From Candidatus Hermodarchaeum yapensis (GTDB taxonomy: Archaea > Asgardarchaeota > Hermodarchaeia > Hermodarchaeales > Hermodarchaeaceae), in assembly GCA_016840405.1 (NCBI GenBank), contig JAEOSK010000005.1:39797-103796 (forward strand): DNA of 64,000 nt, in the 5' to 3' direction. Position 1 is the stretch's first letter. Every line of letters begins with the position of its first letter. Below are positions 32,128-58,343 of the stretch, piece after piece. The notes under the pieces are model-generated. The model was not told where the DNA came from. It saw only the letters and a program-made list of their open reading frames with translations, and made no database searches. A program made the position numbers and the translations under genes.

Positions 32128-33633
32128 TTAGTACTGCTTTCCGACATATGCGACGACAGTTCCTGGTTTATCACATAATGGGCATAATCCCCAGGGTTTT
32201 TCTTGTTCACCAAGCTTGGTTCCACGGATGTCGGCACCAGTTGCGTCTTTGATTTTCTCCGCACAGGCTAGTCCTTCCATTTCGAGTGTGCAGAAGTTGA
32301 TGCGTGCCACTTTTTGTGACTCCATGATTTCGCATATCTCTTCAAAGGAATTAGCGTCTTGAATTGCTCCATCGAAATGTGCTTGGGCACGTTTGCGAAG
32401 TTCATCCGTTACGAACTTACCGGTTTCCTTCACTTTTTTGACTAGCTTCTTGTCTGGCACTGTTTCGCGGGTTCGAATATCTCGACGGAAAATGGTTACG
32501 GTGTTATCCTGGACTTCGCGATTGCCAATTTCCAGTCGGAGCGGAACCCCACGCATTTCCCAGTGATAGTACTTATCACCCGGACGTCGTTCGGTATTAT
32601 CAAAGTGTACACGTAATCCAGCTTTTCGCAGTTGAGCTTCAAGTTTTCGACATCGTTCGATGACGACTTCCTTTAATCCCTTCTTCGGGATGGGAATTAT
32701 GACCACTTGTACAGGGGCTAAGACAAAGGGGAGAATTAAACCGTCATTATCCCCATGCATTATGATCATGGCTCCGTACATGCGGCTAATACCAGGGCCA
32801 AAACAGGTTTGATTAGCATACTGTTCTTGTTCGTTTTCATCGACATACTTGACATCATAGGCCCGTGCAAAGTTCTCCCCGAGCATATGTGTCGTCCCAT
32901 TTTGGATGAATCGACCATTCGGAAGGAGCGATTCTGCTGCCACGGTGTATACGGCACCTGGAAACTTGTCCCATTGTGGTCGTTTTAACACAATAACCGG
33001 CATTGCAAGATCGCCTTCGACGAATGTTTTGGTTATTTCCAAATCCTCTAAGACTTGGGCTTCCGCTTCTTCCACTGTTGCAAATACATTATGAGCTTCT
33101 ATCCAGTAGAACTCACGTCCGCGTAAGAAGGGTCGGGTCATTTTTGTATCATAGCGCCAGATAGCTACGCTTTGGTACCGTTTGAAGGGTAAGTCTCGCC
33201 AGCTCCGTATCCATAGGGAATACAAGGGATACATCGCTGATTCACTCGTTGGTCGAAGAGCTAACGGTTCTTCGAATATCGTATCTGCTCCTGCTCGAGT
33301 GCACCAGAATACTTCTGGGGAGAAGCCTTCAACATGTTGAGCTTCTTTGACAAGATTGGATTCGGGGACTAGGGCGGGAAAAATGAAGGGAAGATGACCG
33401 TACCGTTCGAGCTCTTCTTCTAAGAGCCGGTACATGATTTTCAAAGTCACGGTTGTCCATGAGCGGAACACCACCAGACCTTTCACACCATAGCGCTGGT
33501 CGGAGAGTTCCGCACTTTTGTTGATTTCAGTAAACCAAGTGGAGAAGTCCTTCACCTTGTCATAATGGAAGGTGACAACCTCATCCTGGTCTGCGGTTTC
33601 TTTCTTTGTTTGTTTCCTAGATTTTTGTGTCAT
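32128..33633 (-). CDS. proS: Prolyl-tRNA synthetase (archaeal/eukaryotic type)
   Basis: LRPTSE, RPFLRGREF, GVPLRLEIG and C-terminal Y; SD AGGTGA. Confidence 0.97.
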   Translation of the reverse strand: MTQKSRKQTKKETADQDEVVTFHYDKVKDFSTWFTEINKSAELSDQRYGVKGLVVFRSWTTVTLKIMYRLLEEELERYGHLPFIFPALVPESNLVKEAQHVEGFSPEVFWCTRAGADTIFEEPLALRPTSESAMYPLYSLWIRSWRDLPFKRYQSVAIWRYDTKMTRPFLRGREFYWIEAHNVFATVEEAEAQVLEDLEITKTFVEGDLAMPVIVLKRPQWDKFPGAVYTVAAESLLPNGRFIQNGTTHMLGENFARAYDVKYVDENEQEQYANQTCFGPGISRMYGAMIIMHGDNDGLILPFVLAPVQVVIIPIPKKGLKEVVIERCRKLEAQLRKAGLRVHFDNTERRPGDKYYHWEMRGVPLRLEIGNREVQDNTVTIFRRDIRTRETVPDKKLVKKVKETGKFVTDELRKRAQAHFDGAIQDANSFEEICEIMESQKVARINFCTLEMEGLACAEKIKDATGADIRGTKLGEQEKPWGLCPLCDKPGTVVAYVGKQY

Positions 33634-33689
33634 GATTTCACCTGCCTTCGCGACTCACTACACACTTGATAATACAATAGAAAGAATTG

Positions 33690-34005
33690 AAGGCGTTGAG
33701 CATTGACATTCTCCACGATTGAGGTCGGGAGATTTGTGGACGTCATGCAGACCTCCAAAGGACATGTCATTGCCCTGTTACCGACTTCTACCTCAGGCTC
33801 TGCCTGTTTACTCGTCGCCAAGTAGGTGGACAGAACCTTCACTGGAGCAAGCCCTATCCTAATTATGTGCCATTGTGAGGTGGTGAGGAACGGGTCCTGT
33901 GCCCGTTGATTCACGAATGCCTTACTGTCGAAGCCCACGTCCGATTGGCTACGGACCATGTTCCACCCCGAGGGGGAAGCAAAACTTCGATGGCGAAACG
34001 CATTA
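33690..34005 (-). ncRNA. Candidate structured RNA of about 310 nt upstream of proS (family unrecognised)
   Basis: Nested helices, GCGA tetraloop on minus strand, TTTTTATG box at 34023-34030. Confidence 0.55.
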
Positions 34006-34050
34006 GTATTTTCATGAGAGCTCATAAAAACACAACAATTCTTTTCCGTG

Positions 34051-34162
34051 AAAAAACTCAGAGGTTTACTTGCCGCTTCCATGGTAAAAATTGAGTGGGT
34101 GGTCTTCATTGGATGGGATGTAGGTGGGAAAGTGAACACCTGTCATCTGCTCAAACCTCTGT
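34051..34162 (-). ncRNA. Candidate small RNA of about 105 nt with 9-bp closing stem
   Basis: TTTTTATAA box at 34182-34190, CAGAGGTTT/AAACCTCTG stem, T6 terminator. Confidence 0.5.
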
Positions 34163-34217
34163 AGAATTGACTCTGTTGGAGTTATAAAAACCCTTCTCTT
34201 CACGCCGACTATTTTGG

Positions 34218-35426
34218 CTAGAAGAAGGAGGGTGCACGTTCAAACTCTTGTTTTGGTGGTTTCATCTTCATGGTTTTCGCTGGAGGTAGAATTTCTTCGA
34301 TTGAATACTTCCGTGTACCCATCTTGAGTTTCTCGGCGTGCTTCGTCACTAAGTAGGGATTCTTATAGGGTCCCCAGAGTCTTTGGAACGGATGTAAATC
34401 GGCTTTGGGATTTAGATTGGTGTGTTTAAAATAGGATGGAATTTCGCTCTCGATTAAGCCTTTTTCTGCGATCATATCCAAGGTCGCTTGCTCAACGGCA
34501 ACTATGTCACGGCTAGCAAGGATGCCAATGTGCGGTACGACGGCTGGTTGAATGATCCCCAAGCAATCACAGTGGGGAGTGATGTCGATGGCAACGTTGA
34601 TGAAGAAGCGTTTCTTTTCGTCAAAGGTTTCTAAGATTTTGTTAGCAGCAATGGCCATGAATTCTTGGAAGGCTTCAAACTGTTCAGGACGTAAATCAAG
34701 GCAACCCACATCTTTGTCCGCTTCAAGGCATTCGTTGCAGTTTCCAACGTGACAGGCGAAGCGCATGATGTTGAGTTTGTGTTTTTCCTTGTCATAGGAG
34801 AGGGCGTTGTAGGGGCAGGTTTCGACGAGTTTCTGGGCGTGTTCGGGTGAGCATTTCTTGTCATTCCACCAAGGATAGGTGTTCTCGACGCCGTGGATTT
34901 TATTCCACCGTGAAGGACCAGAGTAGCCACCTAATGCAATATTCTTGATAGCGCCTCCATAACCACAATTGGCATGTCCTTTGGAATGGGTCAGATCAAT
35001 TAAGACATCTGCGTCATGGAGCACCCCGCCCATATCGATTTCTTTGACATTTTTGAAGTCCACTTTCACAGATTTTGTATACCCGTCTTTGACACCCGCG
35101 ACTGGGATAAGGGGACAGCCACACGTTTCTTGGGTGTATCCACGGTCCACGGCATTATAGATGGAAGTGGGGTTATCTGTGACGAAGGGCCAACCACCAA
35201 CCTCCTTTACAGCTTTAACGATGCGGCGGACGAAAAATACTGGGACGGTCTGATAACCATCGTGGAAGCCGAGGTGCATTTTGATGGCGACTTTGTCGTT
35301 TTTCTCGATGGTTGAAAAGTCGAGGTGTTCAAGGAGTTTTAGGAGTTTGGCTCCCAGCGATGCGAAGGCTGCATCGCGTCCGTGTTGGATTGAACCGAAA
35401 TAGACTTTAGCAGTCAACAATTTCAC
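34218..35426 (-). CDS. DUF362-domain Fe-S protein
   Basis: VAIKMHLG, HSKGH...GGAIKN, ITPHCDC and ASRDIVAVE motifs. Confidence 0.88.
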   Translation of the reverse strand: MKLLTAKVYFGSIQHGRDAAFASLGAKLLKLLEHLDFSTIEKNDKVAIKMHLGFHDGYQTVPVFFVRRIVKAVKEVGGWPFVTDNPTSIYNAVDRGYTQETCGCPLIPVAGVKDGYTKSVKVDFKNVKEIDMGGVLHDADVLIDLTHSKGHANCGYGGAIKNIALGGYSGPSRWNKIHGVENTYPWWNDKKCSPEHAQKLVETCPYNALSYDKEKHKLNIMRFACHVGNCNECLEADKDVGCLDLRPEQFEAFQEFMAIAANKILETFDEKKRFFINVAIDITPHCDCLGIIQPAVVPHIGILASRDIVAVEQATLDMIAEKGLIESEIPSYFKHTNLNPKADLHPFQRLWGPYKNPYLVTKHAEKLKMGTRKYSIEEILPPAKTMKMKPPKQEFERAPSFF

Positions 35427-46502: not shown

Positions 46503-47459
46503 TCAGACTTCGACGCCTAAATCGAGAGCACGTACCAATTCTTTGTAGCGGTTTCGAACAGTTACTTCGGTTACGCCTGCAACTTCGCCGATTTCACGTT
46601 GGGTCCGTCGTTCGCCCTCGAGGATTGAGGCGATATAGATCGCGGCGGCTGCGATACAAGTGGGGTCCTTTCCTGAGGTGATGCCCTTGTTTCGTGCTTG
46701 CATGAGAATGTCCAAGGCCCGGGCATGGGTTCGTTGTGAGAGATTGAGGGCAGTTGTATATCGTGATACAAAATCTTCAGGTTGGGTGACTGGCATTTGG
46801 ATTCCGAGACGTCGAACTATGAGCCGGTAGGATCGTCCCAGTTCTTTGCGACCGACACGTGTATAGCGTCCGACGTCTGCTAGTGTCCGGGGGAAGCTGG
46901 TTAGCCGGCAGGCTGCATAGACACATGCTGCGACAATTGCTTCAATACTCCGTCCGCGAATGAGGTTCTTTTCGAGGGCGCGACGATAAAGGAGCGCTCC
47001 CGACTGGCGTACACGTTGAGGAAGATCGAGCTGTCCTGCCAATCGGTCGAGTTCGCTCATGGCACTAGCAAGGTTTCTTTCACTGGCTTGATAGACCCGA
47101 CTTCTATTGTGCCATTTTCGTATTCGCTGCATTTCTGCCCGTCGACGGGCATCCAATCGATGCCCGCGTGCATCAACATCACGCCAATCGATTGTTGTGG
47201 AAAGCCCCTTATCATGCATCGTTAGGGTCGAGGGTGGACCAGCACGAGCGCGTTTATCTCGTTCTTCGGGTGAAAACTCTCGCCATTCTGCACCAAAATC
47301 AATTACATCATCATCCAGGACGAGTCCGCATTCGGCGCAAACGAGTTCGCGAGATGCCGTCATAATGTAGTTGGTACTACCACAATTTGGGCACTTATGG
47401 AGCTCTTCCTCTGATTTTCCACTCTTTTGTGGCGCTCGATGTCGATTTTCTTCAGGCAT
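46503..47459 (-). CDS. tfb: Transcription initiation factor IIB (TFB)
   Basis: Zn ribbon CPNC...CAECG, EWREF, two cyclin repeats, GVTEVTVRNRY. Confidence 0.97.
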   Translation of the reverse strand: MPEENRHRAPQKSGKSEEELHKCPNCGSTNYIMTASRELVCAECGLVLDDDVIDFGAEWREFSPEERDKRARAGPPSTLTMHDKGLSTTIDWRDVDARGHRLDARRRAEMQRIRKWHNRSRVYQASERNLASAMSELDRLAGQLDLPQRVRQSGALLYRRALEKNLIRGRSIEAIVAACVYAACRLTSFPRTLADVGRYTRVGRKELGRSYRLIVRRLGIQMPVTQPEDFVSRYTTALNLSQRTHARALDILMQARNKGITSGKDPTCIAAAAIYIASILEGERRTQREIGEVAGVTEVTVRNRYKELVRALDLGVEV

Positions 47460-56414: not shown

Positions 56415-58343
56415 CTAGTAGCGTTCATAGATTTTGAACAGGACGATAAAGACAACAACGACTAGAGCCACAGCACTCAATAGTAACAGACTCAATGCTG
56501 GATCAAGGCCGATTAACGACCCTTGAATTATATAGGCAAAGGTCGTTGTTCGTCCTGTGTTGTCAAGAGTGTCTGTGGCATTAATGTAGAAGTAGGCTGA
56601 TTCGAACTGGTAATTCGGCATCCTTAGTGGGTAGGATGGGATGACTGCTTGATAGATTGAATCGCCGATGTGTACCATCTCGAGGGGGGAGAGAAAGTTG
56701 ATTCCATCGAATGAGTAGTAGAGTTGCACACTGCTTACTCCGGAACCGTCTATCACCGTGGCATTCATAGTAACAGTGTTCTCATCGGTGGGGTTGGCGG
56801 GGAGAAATGATACGAAGCTTATTGCAGGTGGTCTATCAGCAACGGTATATGAAAAGATGGTTGATGTGTACCAGGCATCTTGTGTGTCATTAACGTAGAT
56901 TCGATACTGAACAAGCTCTTGTTCCGGAAATGGTGGAATAGTTGTCGTATAATTGGCGAGTTTGCTTCGCGACCCACGCATAGTGAGGTTGATCCAAATA
57001 CTCTGAATGGGATCAAGGTAGCTACATATTGCTGTGTGAATTAATGCATCGTCGGTGAGTTCTCCTGTCACCTCGACAAAGTCGGTATCAGAAGCAGGAT
57101 AGGGGTTCGTAACAGAGAGGGTGACATTTGGTGGATCCCGGTCAATGAGGAAGGATTCGGAGAAGAGGCTCGTAGCATTAACAGCAGTCCGATTGCTAGC
57201 GCCTATTGAGTGGAAGAAGGTTGACACCCGATAGTATTCCCCAATCGAAAGTGATCCTTGTTCGATATAATAACTGATATTCAAATTTTCAACAAACCAG
57301 TAACTCCCGACTCCATTCCAGTTCAAGGTGGTGTTAACGGCAGGAGTCACATCACCAAGGAGGTAAATACTGAAGTTTTGGATGCTTACGTCCGTATCAG
57401 TGAGGTTCCCAAAGATGGAATGCCATACCCATGAAACCGTGATGTTCAGAGTCTGCACGTCCCGACCAATGTAGCTGATAATAGGTCTAGCAATCCGGAT
57501 ATAGGGACCCTTGAAGGTGAATGCGTCTGATTTCGCACTTGTTCCATATTGTTGGGGGAGGCGGATGGAGTAATTGGCGGAAACCACAATTCTGTAGGAT
57601 TCATTGGGGATTAACGTGGAGATATTGAGTTCGTGTACTTCCCAATATGTTGAAGTTATATTGTACTGGAGTACAAAATGGAATTCCGTGACATTGGTGG
57701 GTGCATCTGCTTCCTCAAAACCAATGGTGTTATTACTGACCTGATTCAGCGTCCCCCATACTGTACTGGCAATGTATTCTACCCAAACATCAATGGTATC
57801 TGATGTATCTCCGATGTATGTGAAATCGGGATCCCCAATTGTCAGGTAGTGCTGATAATCGAAAGATGTGGACCAGCCTGTCGTTTCAGTCCAGATATCT
57901 CCCGATGCATTGTATTCAAACCGGCATCTTACCTTATACACTGAATAATTTAGGTTCGATGGAAACAGGCTATAATTTAGCGCGGCCCATCCGGTTCCAT
58001 CAATGTATTGGAGATCATCTTCAAACACTATGGATGAATTTTCATCGAAGTAAATACCAAATTTGTGAAGGAGCAGATCGCCATCTTGACATACGCCATG
58101 ATCCCTAGCAATGACCTCTTCTACAACGACATCAAGTAACGAAGAGTTCCCATCTGGGGTGTCAGGTGTGTAAGGTTCGTAGGTGATAAGGGGATCCGTG
58201 GCGTTCAAATCATACTCTGCAGGAACGACCGGACCTCCAGAAACCACTGCAGGAGCTGTTGGTTGAGCCCCGAATAGGGGTGGTAAAAGTGGTAATGCCA
58301 CCAAAAGGATGAGAAACGAGGTACTCAGGATTCGGCGTCGCAC
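56415..58343 (-). CDS. Membrane-anchored surface glycoprotein with Ig/FN3-like domains
   Basis: Signal peptide, D.DPP/DRPP-initiated beta domains, many NxS/T sites, C-terminal TM helix. Confidence 0.8.
   Translation of the reverse strand: MRRRILSTSFLILLVALPLLPPLFGAQPTAPAVVSGGPVVPAEYDLNATDPLITYEPYTPDTPDGNSSLLDVVVEEVIARDHGVCQDGDLLLHKFGIYFDENSSIVFEDDLQYIDGTGWAALNYSLFPSNLNYSVYKVRCRFEYNASGDIWTETTGWSTSFDYQHYLTIGDPDFTYIGDTSDTIDVWVEYIASTVWGTLNQVSNNTIGFEEADAPTNVTEFHFVLQYNITSTYWEVHELNISTLIPNESYRIVVSANYSIRLPQQYGTSAKSDAFTFKGPYIRIARPIISYIGRDVQTLNITVSWVWHSIFGNLTDTDVSIQNFSIYLLGDVTPAVNTTLNWNGVGSYWFVENLNISYYIEQGSLSIGEYYRVSTFFHSIGASNRTAVNATSLFSESFLIDRDPPNVTLSVTNPYPASDTDFVEVTGELTDDALIHTAICSYLDPIQSIWINLTMRGSRSKLANYTTTIPPFPEQELVQYRIYVNDTQDAWYTSTIFSYTVADRPPAISFVSFLPANPTDENTVTMNATVIDGSGVSSVQLYYSFDGINFLSPLEMVHIGDSIYQAVIPSYPLRMPNYQFESAYFYINATDTLDNTGRTTTFAYIIQGSLIGLDPALSLLLLSAVALVVVVFIVLFKIYERY

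What the first reader, a model, noticed from the sequence alone, without database searches (positions are those of the whole stretch)
33690..34005. Unrecognised ~310-nt multi-domain RNA upstream of proS
Seen, on the minus strand: a TATA-like box at 34023-34030. Domain 1 is closed by 33916-20/34000-04 and 33928-33/33985-90 and holds two hairpins (33939-56, 33961-78); a further hairpin lies at 33889-33907. Domain 2 is closed by 33711-15/33843-47 and holds a long hairpin 33795-33838 capped by a GCGA (GNRA) tetraloop plus a branched arm 33721-33788. A pyrimidine tract follows at about 33680-33690. I could not find SRP, RNase P, T-box, tmRNA or intron signatures. Inference: a new large ncRNA or a cis-regulatory leader for proS, which would be notable because T-boxes are regarded as bacterial.
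Basis: partly seen in the sequence, partly recalled or inferred. Interest (0 to 1): 0.8.

Follow-up and report, generated by a model that had tools for sequence, protein, structure and literature searches.

The report
Gene-less transposon carrying TnpB guide RNA
The ~310-nt folded RNA in front of proS is not a proS regulator but the guide-RNA (omegaRNA) gene of a 381-bp protein-less jumping element of the IS200/IS605 family, newly inserted in this Asgard archaeon; this kind of element is already described.

Summary
The flagged RNA is real and structured, but it is not a proS leader. Window 34083->33703 (minus strand) is a 381-bp insertion. It sits 3' of TTAC, ends in TCAA and makes no target duplication. 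It is missing from the same site in all 13 same-genus genomes that have the locus.

Its last ~155 nt form a four-stem scaffold that also ends the tnpB genes of IS200/IS605 elements in this and other Asgard genomes (covariation; model hits in 32 of 151 genomes). Its left end matches the left ends of tnpB-bearing relatives.

Two diverged paralogues (62-66% identity) lie elsewhere in the genome, next to unrelated genes. Both are also precise insertions. They share a TATA box, a ~145-nt 5' domain and 90% of the predicted base pairs, 17 of them with compensatory changes.

The 169-aa ORF is a fossil of the TnpB C-terminus and is broken in the paralogues. There is no Rfam match.

Best reading: a standalone omegaRNA / PATE-like element, a known kind that this scan has already found in other Asgard genomes and in this one.

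Open points:
- the origin of the 5' domain;
- no intact cognate TnpB or TnpA in this 86%-complete genome;
- no source for three copies that had already diverged before inserting.

The element splits a conserved host unit upstream of proS.

The parts
34084..34087 (-). Host TTAC: insertion target and predicted TAM, immediately 5' of the element
   Evidence: Empty site in G002 reads ...ATTTTTAC|TGCTCAACGCC...; occupied site in G000 reads ...ATTTTTAC|CATGG...GTCAA|TGCTCAACGCC. The same TTAC is intact and uninterrupted in 13 congeners. TTAC also precedes the left ends of the paralogue C14b and of tnpB-bearing relatives.
33703..34083 (-). 381-bp protein-less IS200/IS605-type element (standalone omegaRNA element)
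   Evidence: The BLAST split is exact: q1-467 and q849-1301 are contiguous in G002, G010 and G012. There is no target-site duplication and the element ends in TCAA. Two paralogous insertions have their own empty sites.
34033..34083 (-). Left end (LE)
   Evidence: It aligns with the LEs of the paralogues and of tnpB-encoding elements: TTAC | ~13 nt | GCAAGAAAGCCC | hairpin | GGGATGAAT. The hairpin is degenerate in the window copy (only TTTTC/GAAAA).
34023..34030 (-). TATA box of the element's own promoter (TTTTTATG)
   Evidence: It is conserved as TTTATATA / TTTTTATA at the same distance (about 20-23 nt) before the first helix in all three paralogues. Transcription itself was not tested.
33858..34003 (-). 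5' domain of the RNA (~145 nt): a long irregular hairpin, a 7-bp hairpin (33889-33907) and a linker
   Evidence: Helices 4-7 are kept in three copies that are only 54-56% identical here. The domain was found only in this genome: the R2 model hit 3 of 3 own copies and 0 of 150 other Asgard genomes. Its origin is unknown.
33703..33857 (-). omegaRNA core scaffold: stem A (33853-33782), stem B (33776-33759), stem C (33753-33738), stem D / right-end hairpin (33732-33710), and the 3' terminal UGUCAA (33708-33703)
   Evidence: The same four stems fold in tnpB-linked copies. On 11 sequences, 93.3% of cells are paired and 9 pairs show double changes. The R1 model finds it in 32 of 151 Asgard genomes. 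It overlaps the 3' end of tnpB ORFs.
33792..33841 (-). Extension of stem A, capped by GCGA (33818-33815); about 42 nt more than tnpB-linked copies have at this point
   Evidence: Six pairs show compensatory changes among the three paralogues. tnpB-linked copies carry a short tip here, some with UUCG.
33683..33702 (-). Predicted guide segment (TGCTCAACGCCTTCAATTCT), read from the flanking host DNA
   Evidence: Sequence conservation across all family members stops exactly at ...GTCAA and the next bases are unrelated. The guide matches only its own flank in this genome. In G002 the empty site carries TTAC followed by the first 14 nt of this guide. Guide length and 3' end are inferred.
33630..34139 (-). 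169-aa ORF: not a gene, partly a fossil of the TnpB C-terminal reading frame
   Evidence: No Pfam family. '...IRIGLAP...EVEVGNRAMTCPLEV' mirrors the TnpB tail '...VNIGLAQGAAFPGEVVNGAVACPLEV'. The paralogues have stops in all frames. The ORF also crosses the insertion boundary at 34083/34084.
32128..33633 (-). proS (archaeal-type prolyl-tRNA synthetase), 69 nt downstream of the element
   Evidence: Pfam tRNA-synt_2b, HGTP_anticodon and ProRS-C_1.
34084..34203 (-). Context: conserved host unit (TATA at about 34182-34195 plus a conserved ~75-nt block) that the element interrupts at its 3' edge
   Evidence: It is conserved in 13 of 13 congeners with a constant 156-158 nt from the TATA box to the proS ATG. 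It is not part of the element.

Best explanation
Window 34083->33703 (minus strand) is a 381-bp non-autonomous IS200/IS605-family transposon. It has lost tnpB and never carried tnpA. It keeps only its left end, an archaeal TATA promoter and a ~300-nt omegaRNA gene whose 3' end coincides with the transposon's right end.

Shown:
- It is a precise insertion 3' of TTAC, ending in TCAA, with no duplication. It is absent from all congeners.
- Its ends and its 3' scaffold are homologous to those of tnpB-encoding elements.
- Three diverged copies keep the fold.

Inferred:
- Transcription starts near 34003 and runs through the scaffold into the flank. That gives a guide of about 16-20 nt (TGCTCAACGCC...).
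- With a compatible TnpB supplied in trans, this RNA would direct cleavage of TTAC+guide sites. Those are the empty 'donor joints' left after excision, or homologous chromosomes that lack the element. Recombination would then copy the element back (homing/retention).
- Movement would need a Y1 TnpA in trans.
- Its position in front of proS is a consequence of a TTAC in an AT-rich upstream region, not a function.
For: Insertion and ends:
- Exact empty sites for the window copy: G002; contiguous in G010 and G012, within 1 nt in G007; the element is absent in 13 of 13 congeners with the locus.
- Exact empty sites for both paralogues in G002 and G005.
- LE homology, starting right after TTAC, with tnpB-bearing elements.

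Link to TnpB elements:
- The 3' ~90 nt match the region at or just past the stop codon of TnpB genes with OrfB_IS605 and Cas12f1-like_TNB domains.
- A four-stem scaffold is shared by tnpB-linked and standalone copies, with covariation.
- The R1 model hits 32 of 151 Asgard genomes, with up to 28 copies in one genome.
- Sequence conservation ends at GTCAA and is followed by unrelated sequence, as expected for a guide.

The three copies:
- A conserved TATA box sits at a fixed distance in all three.
- 84 consensus pairs are 90% kept, with 17 double changes, although identity is only 62-66%.

Not a protein gene: no Pfam family, and the frames are broken in the paralogues.

Literature: standalone, mobilised omegaRNAs that work in trans with compatible effectors are described (PMC10691335). 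PATE-like elements 'often encode omegaRNAs' acted on in trans (PMC10055086).
Against: - No intact cognate TnpB is in this assembly. The only two family members (C14:94652-95833, C27:22212-23378) each carry two in-frame stops, and one also has Asp->Gly in RuvC-I. The other ~26 TnpBs are <=25% identical.
- No Y1 TnpA was found. The genome is 86% complete.
- The LE hairpin of the window copy looks degenerate.
- Single-sequence folding energy is not better than shuffles for the window copy.
- The ~145-nt 5' domain has no counterpart in tnpB-linked relatives, so part of the RNA is unexplained.
- No source was found for three copies that had already diverged before inserting.
Confidence: 0.85

Rival explanations
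1. Same origin, but now inert. The element is a dead relic of an omegaRNA transposon, with no partner nuclease or transposase in this organism and no present function.
For: Both cognate TnpB genes in the genome are pseudogenes. No TnpA was found. The LE hairpin is degenerate in the window copy and the TAM is mutated (TTAG) at the C67 copy. Related loci in congeners show omegaRNA ends surviving while tnpB is progressively deleted.
Against: All three copies inserted after the split from G002/G005 (flanks 90-96% identical), so mobilisation was recent. The fold and the promoter are kept at 62-66% identity, with 17 compensatory pairs. The genome is only 86% complete, and intact cognate TnpBs exist in congeners, for example 395 aa in G013.
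Confidence: 0.3
2. A cis-regulatory leader of proS, such as a T-box-like tRNA-sensing riboswitch in an archaeon.
For: It lies 69 nt upstream of proS on the same strand and is structured.
Against: It is absent from the proS upstream region of 13 of 13 congeners, which instead share a different conserved ~140-nt upstream unit. The paralogues are not next to aminoacyl-tRNA synthetase genes. There is no T-box or any other Rfam match. It is homologous to transposon ends.
Confidence: 0.02
3. A domesticated guide RNA (TldR-like or other exapted TnpB system) that directs a nuclease-dead TnpB relative to a host promoter.
For: It has its own promoter, an extra 5' domain and no adjacent nuclease gene. 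Exapted TnpB regulators exist (bioRxiv 10.1101/2023.11.30.569447, listed).
Against: Each of the three guides matches only its own flank. No second site was found within 2 mismatches over 20 nt, and none of the listed 16-nt near-matches lies next to TTAC. The elements are mobile and lineage-specific, not fixed. No intact partner protein of the family is present.
Confidence: 0.03
4. A free-standing novel housekeeping ncRNA (a divergent RNase P, SRP or similar), or a small protein gene (the 169-aa ORF).
For: Size of about 300 nt, raised G+C (52-54% against about 44%) and an upstream TATA box. An ORF of 169 aa spans it.
Against: No Rfam match even at E<=10. It is present in three diverged copies in one genome and absent from 150 other Asgard genomes, which does not fit a housekeeping RNA. 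The ORF has no Pfam family, crosses the insertion boundary and is broken in the paralogues.
Confidence: 0.02

Closest known systems
Standalone omegaRNAs of OMEGA systems (Altae-Tran et al. 2021, as summarised in PMC10691335)
   Same: A mobilised omegaRNA locus without effector or transposase, in a genome that also holds effector-containing loci of the same family. The scaffold ends at the transposon's right end and the guide is read from the flank.
   Different: This one is in an Asgard archaeon. It has its own archaeal TATA promoter, a 42-nt extension of stem A and a ~145-nt 5' domain not seen in tnpB-linked relatives. The cognate TnpB genes in the same genome are pseudogenes. Function in trans is not shown.
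PATE-like protein-less IS200/IS605 derivatives that encode omegaRNAs (Geobacillus stearothermophilus ISGst families; PMC10055086)
   Same: Short elements with LE and RE but no ORF, dependent on TnpA and TnpB in trans. Empty 'donor joint' sites in relatives define the TAM plus guide.
   Different: The bacterial examples are multi-copy and near-identical. Here there are three copies at 62-66% identity, each a separate recent insertion, and no transposase was found.
IS608 of Helicobacter pylori, the IS200/IS605 paradigm (own knowledge: inserts 3' of TTAC, right-end cleavage after TCAA, no target duplication, sub-terminal hairpins)
   Same: The same TTAC target and TCAA right terminus, no duplication, a right-end hairpin 7 nt from the tip, and seamless empty sites.
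   Different: IS608 encodes tnpA and tnpB; this element encodes neither. There is no sequence similarity beyond the tetranucleotides, and none was tested.
Archaeal tnpB-overlapping omegaRNAs / sotRNAs (Halobacterium; PMC12558985 and references therein)
   Same: An archaeal omegaRNA whose scaffold overlaps what is, or was, the 3' end of the tnpB reading frame. The window ORF still shows the fossil frame.
   Different: Those are processed from tnpB transcripts of tnpB-bearing elements. Here the tnpB body is gone and a dedicated promoter sits directly after the LE.
T-box leaders of bacterial aminoacyl-tRNA synthetase genes (Rfam RF00230)
   Same: Only the position upstream of an aminoacyl-tRNA synthetase gene and a multi-helix fold of comparable size.
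   Different: No model match, no conservation at the locus, paralogues at unrelated genes, and transposon ends.

Membership tests
Standalone omegaRNA / PATE-like non-autonomous IS200/IS605 element | Precise insertion next to a fixed short motif without target-site duplication, with seamless empty sites in relatives | tested here: met
   TTAC|element|TGCTC against TTAC|TGCTC in G002. The junction is contiguous in G010 and G012, within 1 nt in G007, and the site is empty in all 13 congeners with the locus. Both paralogues likewise.
Standalone omegaRNA / PATE-like non-autonomous IS200/IS605 element | Right end and RNA scaffold homologous to the 3' end of tnpB-encoding elements, with structure supported by covariation | tested here: met
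   The R1 model scores the window copy at 91 bits and tnpB-linked copies at 98-109 bits.
Standalone omegaRNA / PATE-like non-autonomous IS200/IS605 element | Left end homologous to that of tnpB-encoding elements, with a sub-terminal hairpin | tested here: inconclusive
   The shared layout TTAC|~13 nt|GCAAGAAAGCCC|hairpin|GGGATGAAT is visible. However, BLAST support is weak (E 0.07-0.9), and the hairpin of the window copy is reduced to 5 bp.
Standalone omegaRNA / PATE-like non-autonomous IS200/IS605 element | No protein-coding gene inside the element | tested here: met
   The 169-aa ORF has no Pfam family, is a fossil TnpB frame, and the paralogues have stops in every frame.
Standalone omegaRNA / PATE-like non-autonomous IS200/IS605 element | Conserved scaffold ends abruptly and is followed by copy-specific sequence (the guide position) | tested here: met
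   All 13 aligned copies end in ...TGTCAA and are then unrelated.
Standalone omegaRNA / PATE-like non-autonomous IS200/IS605 element | Compatible TnpB effector in the same genome | tested here: not met
   Only two cognate copies exist, each with two in-frame stops. The assembly is 86% complete, so this does not show absence.
Standalone omegaRNA / PATE-like non-autonomous IS200/IS605 element | Y1 TnpA transposase available in trans | tested here: not met
   PF01797 gave no hit in the genome's own assembly. The assembly is incomplete.
Standalone omegaRNA / PATE-like non-autonomous IS200/IS605 element | RNA is expressed, binds TnpB and guides TAM-dependent DNA cleavage | not testable with these tools
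T-box riboswitch / aminoacyl-tRNA synthetase leader | Match to the T-box covariance model (stem I specifier, T-box sequence, antiterminator) | tested here: not met
   No Rfam hit at the gathering threshold or at E<=10.
T-box riboswitch / aminoacyl-tRNA synthetase leader | Conserved in the leader of the regulated gene across relatives, with family members upstream of amino-acid-related genes | tested here: not met
   Absent upstream of proS in 13 of 13 congeners. The paralogues lie next to PfkB, Alba, ThiN and Ras-like genes.
RNase P RNA / SRP RNA / tmRNA / group I or II intron | Match to the corresponding Rfam models, and a single conserved copy per genome for the housekeeping RNAs | tested here: not met
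   No hits. There are three copies in this genome and none in 150 other Asgard genomes.
Exapted TnpB guide RNA (TldR-type) | Guide complementary to a distant host target next to the TAM | tested here: not met
   Each guide matches only its own flank.

The most novel reading that the evidence does not exclude
The promoter-driven RNA is more than a leftover guide. Its ~145-nt 5' domain is kept by compensatory changes in three copies that diverged before they inserted, and it is found in no other genome searched. It could be an acquired module that lets a guide-RNA-only parasite recruit a non-cognate TnpB or another protein. Alternatively it could give the RNA a TnpB-independent role, in a genome where the cognate nuclease is dead.
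Probability: 0.1. Interest if true: 0.6.

Novelty: new member of a known kind. Interest (0 to 1): 0.3.

Why it matters
It removes a false lead: there is no archaeal T-box-like proS leader here. It adds a well-bounded Asgard example of a guide-RNA-only transposon, with the TAM (TTAC), the guide and empty sites all defined. That makes it directly usable for a trans-complementation test with an intact congeneric TnpB.

Three recently inserted but deeply diverged copies keep a common fold. This argues that selection acts on the RNA of protein-less elements, which fits the idea that such elements parasitise both TnpA and TnpB. The family's right-end motif is widespread across archaeal phyla, yet Rfam has no model for it.

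The truly conserved non-coding unit upstream of proS is the host segment that the element interrupts. That segment is the better place to look for proS regulation.

Tried and rejected
- Rfam, whole window at the gathering threshold, and the locus plus both paralogues at E<=10: nothing relevant. ARAGORN: no tRNA or tmRNA.
It was split into R1 (core) and R2 (5' domain).
- R2 found no further 5' domains in 150 other Asgard genomes, in 82 RE-bearing or other loci from many archaeal phyla, or in the tnpB ORF / LE regions of relatives with filters off.
- Pattern ATAGGGCTTGCNCCNGTGA in representative genomes: 39 hits in unrelated records, nearly all bacterial, about the number chance predicts.
- Metagenome scan: returned only the window's own element, one hit like the C67 copy (74% to the window element, presumably that copy) and one unrelated hit.
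- IMG/VR scans for standalone-specific patterns: 0 hits.
- BLAST of the 5' part against LE/5'UTR regions of tnpB elements: only weak LE matches.
- Second genomic targets for the three guides: none.
- Fraction of tnpB-less copies among 82 RE-motif loci by tblastn with one TnpB query: not interpretable, because the query is too distant from most of them.
Not adopted.
- The large protein homology searches were not spent on the 169-aa ORF, because the paralogues already break the frame.

Full report
**What is at the coordinates.**
On the minus strand, the 585-nt gap between a DUF362 gene (34218-35426) and proS (32128-33633; Pfam tRNA-synt_2b, HGTP_anticodon, ProRS-C_1) holds a G+C-enriched stretch of 52-54%, against about 44% around it.

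Rfam gives nothing for the whole window at the gathering threshold, or for the locus at E<=10. ARAGORN finds nothing. Folding energy alone is unremarkable: z = -1.33 for 33680-34010 and -0.98 for 33703-34003, and the plus strand gives -0.16.

**It is a repeated element tied to TnpB.**
BLAST of the region against the window's own genome (G000, 2.7 Mb, 86% complete) finds four more copies.

Two of them share the whole ~310 nt plus an upstream TATA box: C67:52045-52425 and C14:~129807-130179.

The other two share only the last ~90-120 nt, and they lie at the 3' end of TnpB genes (OrfB_IS605 and Cas12f1-like_TNB). In those genes the ORF tail '...HRDGVGVVNIGLAQGAAFPGEVVNGAVACPLEVSG*' runs into the conserved RNA core. 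The window's 169-aa ORF keeps a fossil of the same frame ('IRIGLAP...EVEVGNRAMTCPLEV'). It has no Pfam family, and in the two full-length paralogues every frame is broken. The ORF is therefore not a gene.

**The RNA scaffold.**
Eleven copies from this genus, three standalone and eight others, align over the last ~93 nt. They end uniformly in ...GGAGARTGTCAA, after which the sequences are unrelated.

RNAalifold gives three hairpins there, with 93.3% of cells paired, 9 pairs with double changes, and no shuffle reaching the observed covariation score.

A fourth stem lies just upstream (GGCUU/AAGUC, covarying to GCGUC/GGCGC and GUGCC/GGCAC). It folds in both tnpB-linked and standalone copies.

A covariance model of the core (R1) hits 32 of 151 Asgard genomes, with up to 28 copies per genome. 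Many hits sit at the end of full-length TnpB ORFs of 373-447 aa. The right-end hairpin motif also occurs in many other archaeal phyla. Contig titles place the genus among Asgard archaea.

**It is a precise, recent insertion.**
In the same-genus genome G002 the flanks are 89-92% identical and abut directly. G002 reads ...CCATTTTTAC|TGCTCAACGCCTTC..., whereas G000 reads ...CAATTTTTAC|CATGGAAG...[381 nt]...GAATGTCAA|TGCTCAACGCCTTC.

There is no target duplication. The element lies 3' of TTAC and ends in TCAA. From my own knowledge, this is the IS608-type signature of IS200/IS605 peel-and-paste elements.

The junction is likewise empty in G010, G012 and G007, and by spacing in the other congeners. 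The element is absent in 13 of 13 genomes that contain the locus.

Both full-length paralogues are also precise insertions relative to G002 and G005. C14b lies after TTTAC. At the C67 site, G002 and G005 read ATTAC|TACTTAG, whereas G000 now reads ATTAG before the element.

The first ~50 nt align with the left ends of tnpB-encoding elements from other Asgard genomes, starting right after TTAC: TTAC | ~13 nt | GCAAGAAAGCCC | hairpin | GGGATGAAT.

**The three standalone copies.**
They are 62-66% identical overall: 54-56% in the 5' domain and 70-76% in the core. Even so, 84 consensus pairs are 90.4% kept, with 17 pairs changed on both sides, against 3-5 for slid controls and 0 of 500 shuffles reaching the observed value.

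A TATA box (TTTTTATG / TTTATATA / TTTTTATA) sits at a fixed 20-23 nt before the first helix. This predicts a start near 34003.

The ~145-nt 5' domain (34003-33858) is specific to these three copies. Model R2 finds nothing in 150 other Asgard genomes, in 82 other loci, or in the tnpB or LE regions of relatives. BLAST shows no link to tnpB 5' regions.

**Mechanism (inferred).**
By analogy with characterised OMEGA systems, the RNA scaffold ends at the transposon boundary and the next ~16-20 nt (TGCTCAACGCCTTCAATTCT) are the guide.

The target TTAC+guide is exactly the empty site seen in G002, where the first 14 nt are identical. The guides match nothing else in the genome, as expected for a homing guide rather than a domesticated one.

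The literature already describes such loci. [quoted passage not shown] PATE elements 'often encode omegaRNAs' acted on in trans (PMC10055086).

This scan has also reported comparable protein-less omegaRNA elements in other Asgard genomes and in this genome, including the C67 paralogue. I treated those notes as leads only.

**Weak points.**
- The only two cognate TnpB genes in G000 each have two in-frame stops, and one has lost the RuvC-I aspartate.
- No Y1 TnpA is detectable.
- Expression could not be checked.
- The three copies diverged well before they inserted, yet I found no source pool.
- The element may therefore be inert today. I give that about 0.3, as a sub-case of the same identity.

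**Relation to proS.**
The proS-leader idea fails for the element. However, the host DNA it interrupts is itself notable. All 13 congeners share a TATA box (GAAGGGTTTTTATA) at a constant 156-158 nt before the proS ATG. They also share the conserved blocks GAGGYTTGAGCAGATGAYAGGTGTTCACTTTCC and CCAYCCACTCNATTTTTAC|TGCTCAAC.

RNAalifold pairs UGAGCAG(A)UGA with UUUACUGCUCA across the insertion point, but with little covariation. The motif is unique in the genome. This may be the real proS leader or a small RNA, and in G000 the element splits it.

**Verdict.**
It is a new member of a known kind (standalone omegaRNA / PATE-like IS200/IS605 element), with an unexplained lineage-specific 5' domain.

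Noticed in passing
window 34084-34203 and 33634-33702 (minus strand): The host unit upstream of proS is conserved in all 13 congeners with the locus. It has a TATA box (GAAGGGTTTTTATA), a constant 156-158 nt to the ATG, two strongly conserved blocks, and a predicted helix UGAGCAG(A)UGA/UUUACUGCUCA that spans the TTAC insertion site. It is unique in the genome. It could be the true proS leader or a small RNA, and the element splits it in G000 only.
   Followed up: partly
window 34051-34190: The '~105-nt transcription unit' of another first-reader note (e1-5554005) closes with a stem 34153-61/34059-67. Its 3' arm lies inside the inserted element's left end and is absent from all congeners, so that stem cannot belong to a conserved unit.
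   Followed up: partly
window 33703-33708 with about 34135-34139: The element's terminal UGUCA is complementary to UGACA in the conserved host block (GCAGAUGACAGG). After insertion, the host helix could therefore partly re-form as UGAGCAG-A-UGACA / UGUCA-A-UGCUCA. This is probably coincidence.
   Followed up: no
G000 C14:94652-95833 (L013) and C27:22212-23378 (L016): The cognate TnpB genes are pseudogenes. C14 has two in-frame TGA codons at positions where homologues have Arg and Ser/Lys, plus Asp->Gly in RuvC-I. C27 has two in-frame stops.
   Followed up: yes
L084 (G013), L013, L016, L078: This TnpB family has G-D-L where RuvC-II normally has the catalytic Glu (…VLGDLTG…). This resembles the 'RuvC-II rearranged' clades, in which Glu is replaced by Gly (PMC10691335).
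   Followed up: partly
L081 (G005:C339) versus L003 (G014:C15); L002 (G010:C20) versus L079 (G014:C40): These are orthologous relic loci with the same downstream flank. One keeps the last ~110 codons of tnpB plus the omegaRNA core. The other keeps only ~140 nt of RNA, preceded by an A/T-rich TATA-like stretch. This shows stepwise 5' deletion that spares the omegaRNA end.
   Followed up: partly
G061, G076, G081 (other Asgard family); e.g. G061:C72:56716-56816 and 57451-57551: There are 16-28 R1 hits per genome, many at contig ends, and two hits only 735 nt apart on one strand. This suggests high-copy short, possibly tnpB-less, elements of the same right-end family.
   Followed up: no
loci L130-L209: The right-end motif AATCTCCC...GGAGANTGTCAA occurs in Bathyarchaeia, Korarchaeia, Methanomethylicota, Archaeoglobi, Nitrososphaeria, several Asgard lineages and a few bacterial MAGs. 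It marks a very widespread IS family with no Rfam model.
   Followed up: no
L013 1850-3088 (G000 C14): The tnpB pseudogene with this omegaRNA lies ~260 nt upstream of a class II Asp/Lys/Asn-type aminoacyl-tRNA synthetase gene. This is a second family member in front of a synthetase gene, most likely by chance.
   Followed up: no
window 47304-47396 (minus strand): A weak Cas12f1-like TNB-domain match (21.6 bits, below the cut-off) lies in a 342-aa open frame. It may be a divergent TnpB in the window.
   Followed up: no
window 33875-33888: The 'CCUCACCACCUCAC anti-SD linker' of another note (e1-5554004) is not conserved (C67: CACCGCAAAGCAAC; C14b: AACCGCAUCCAAC). In the paralogues it forms the 3' strand of the helix that closes the 5' domain (ACCGCA with UGCGGU).
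   Followed up: partly
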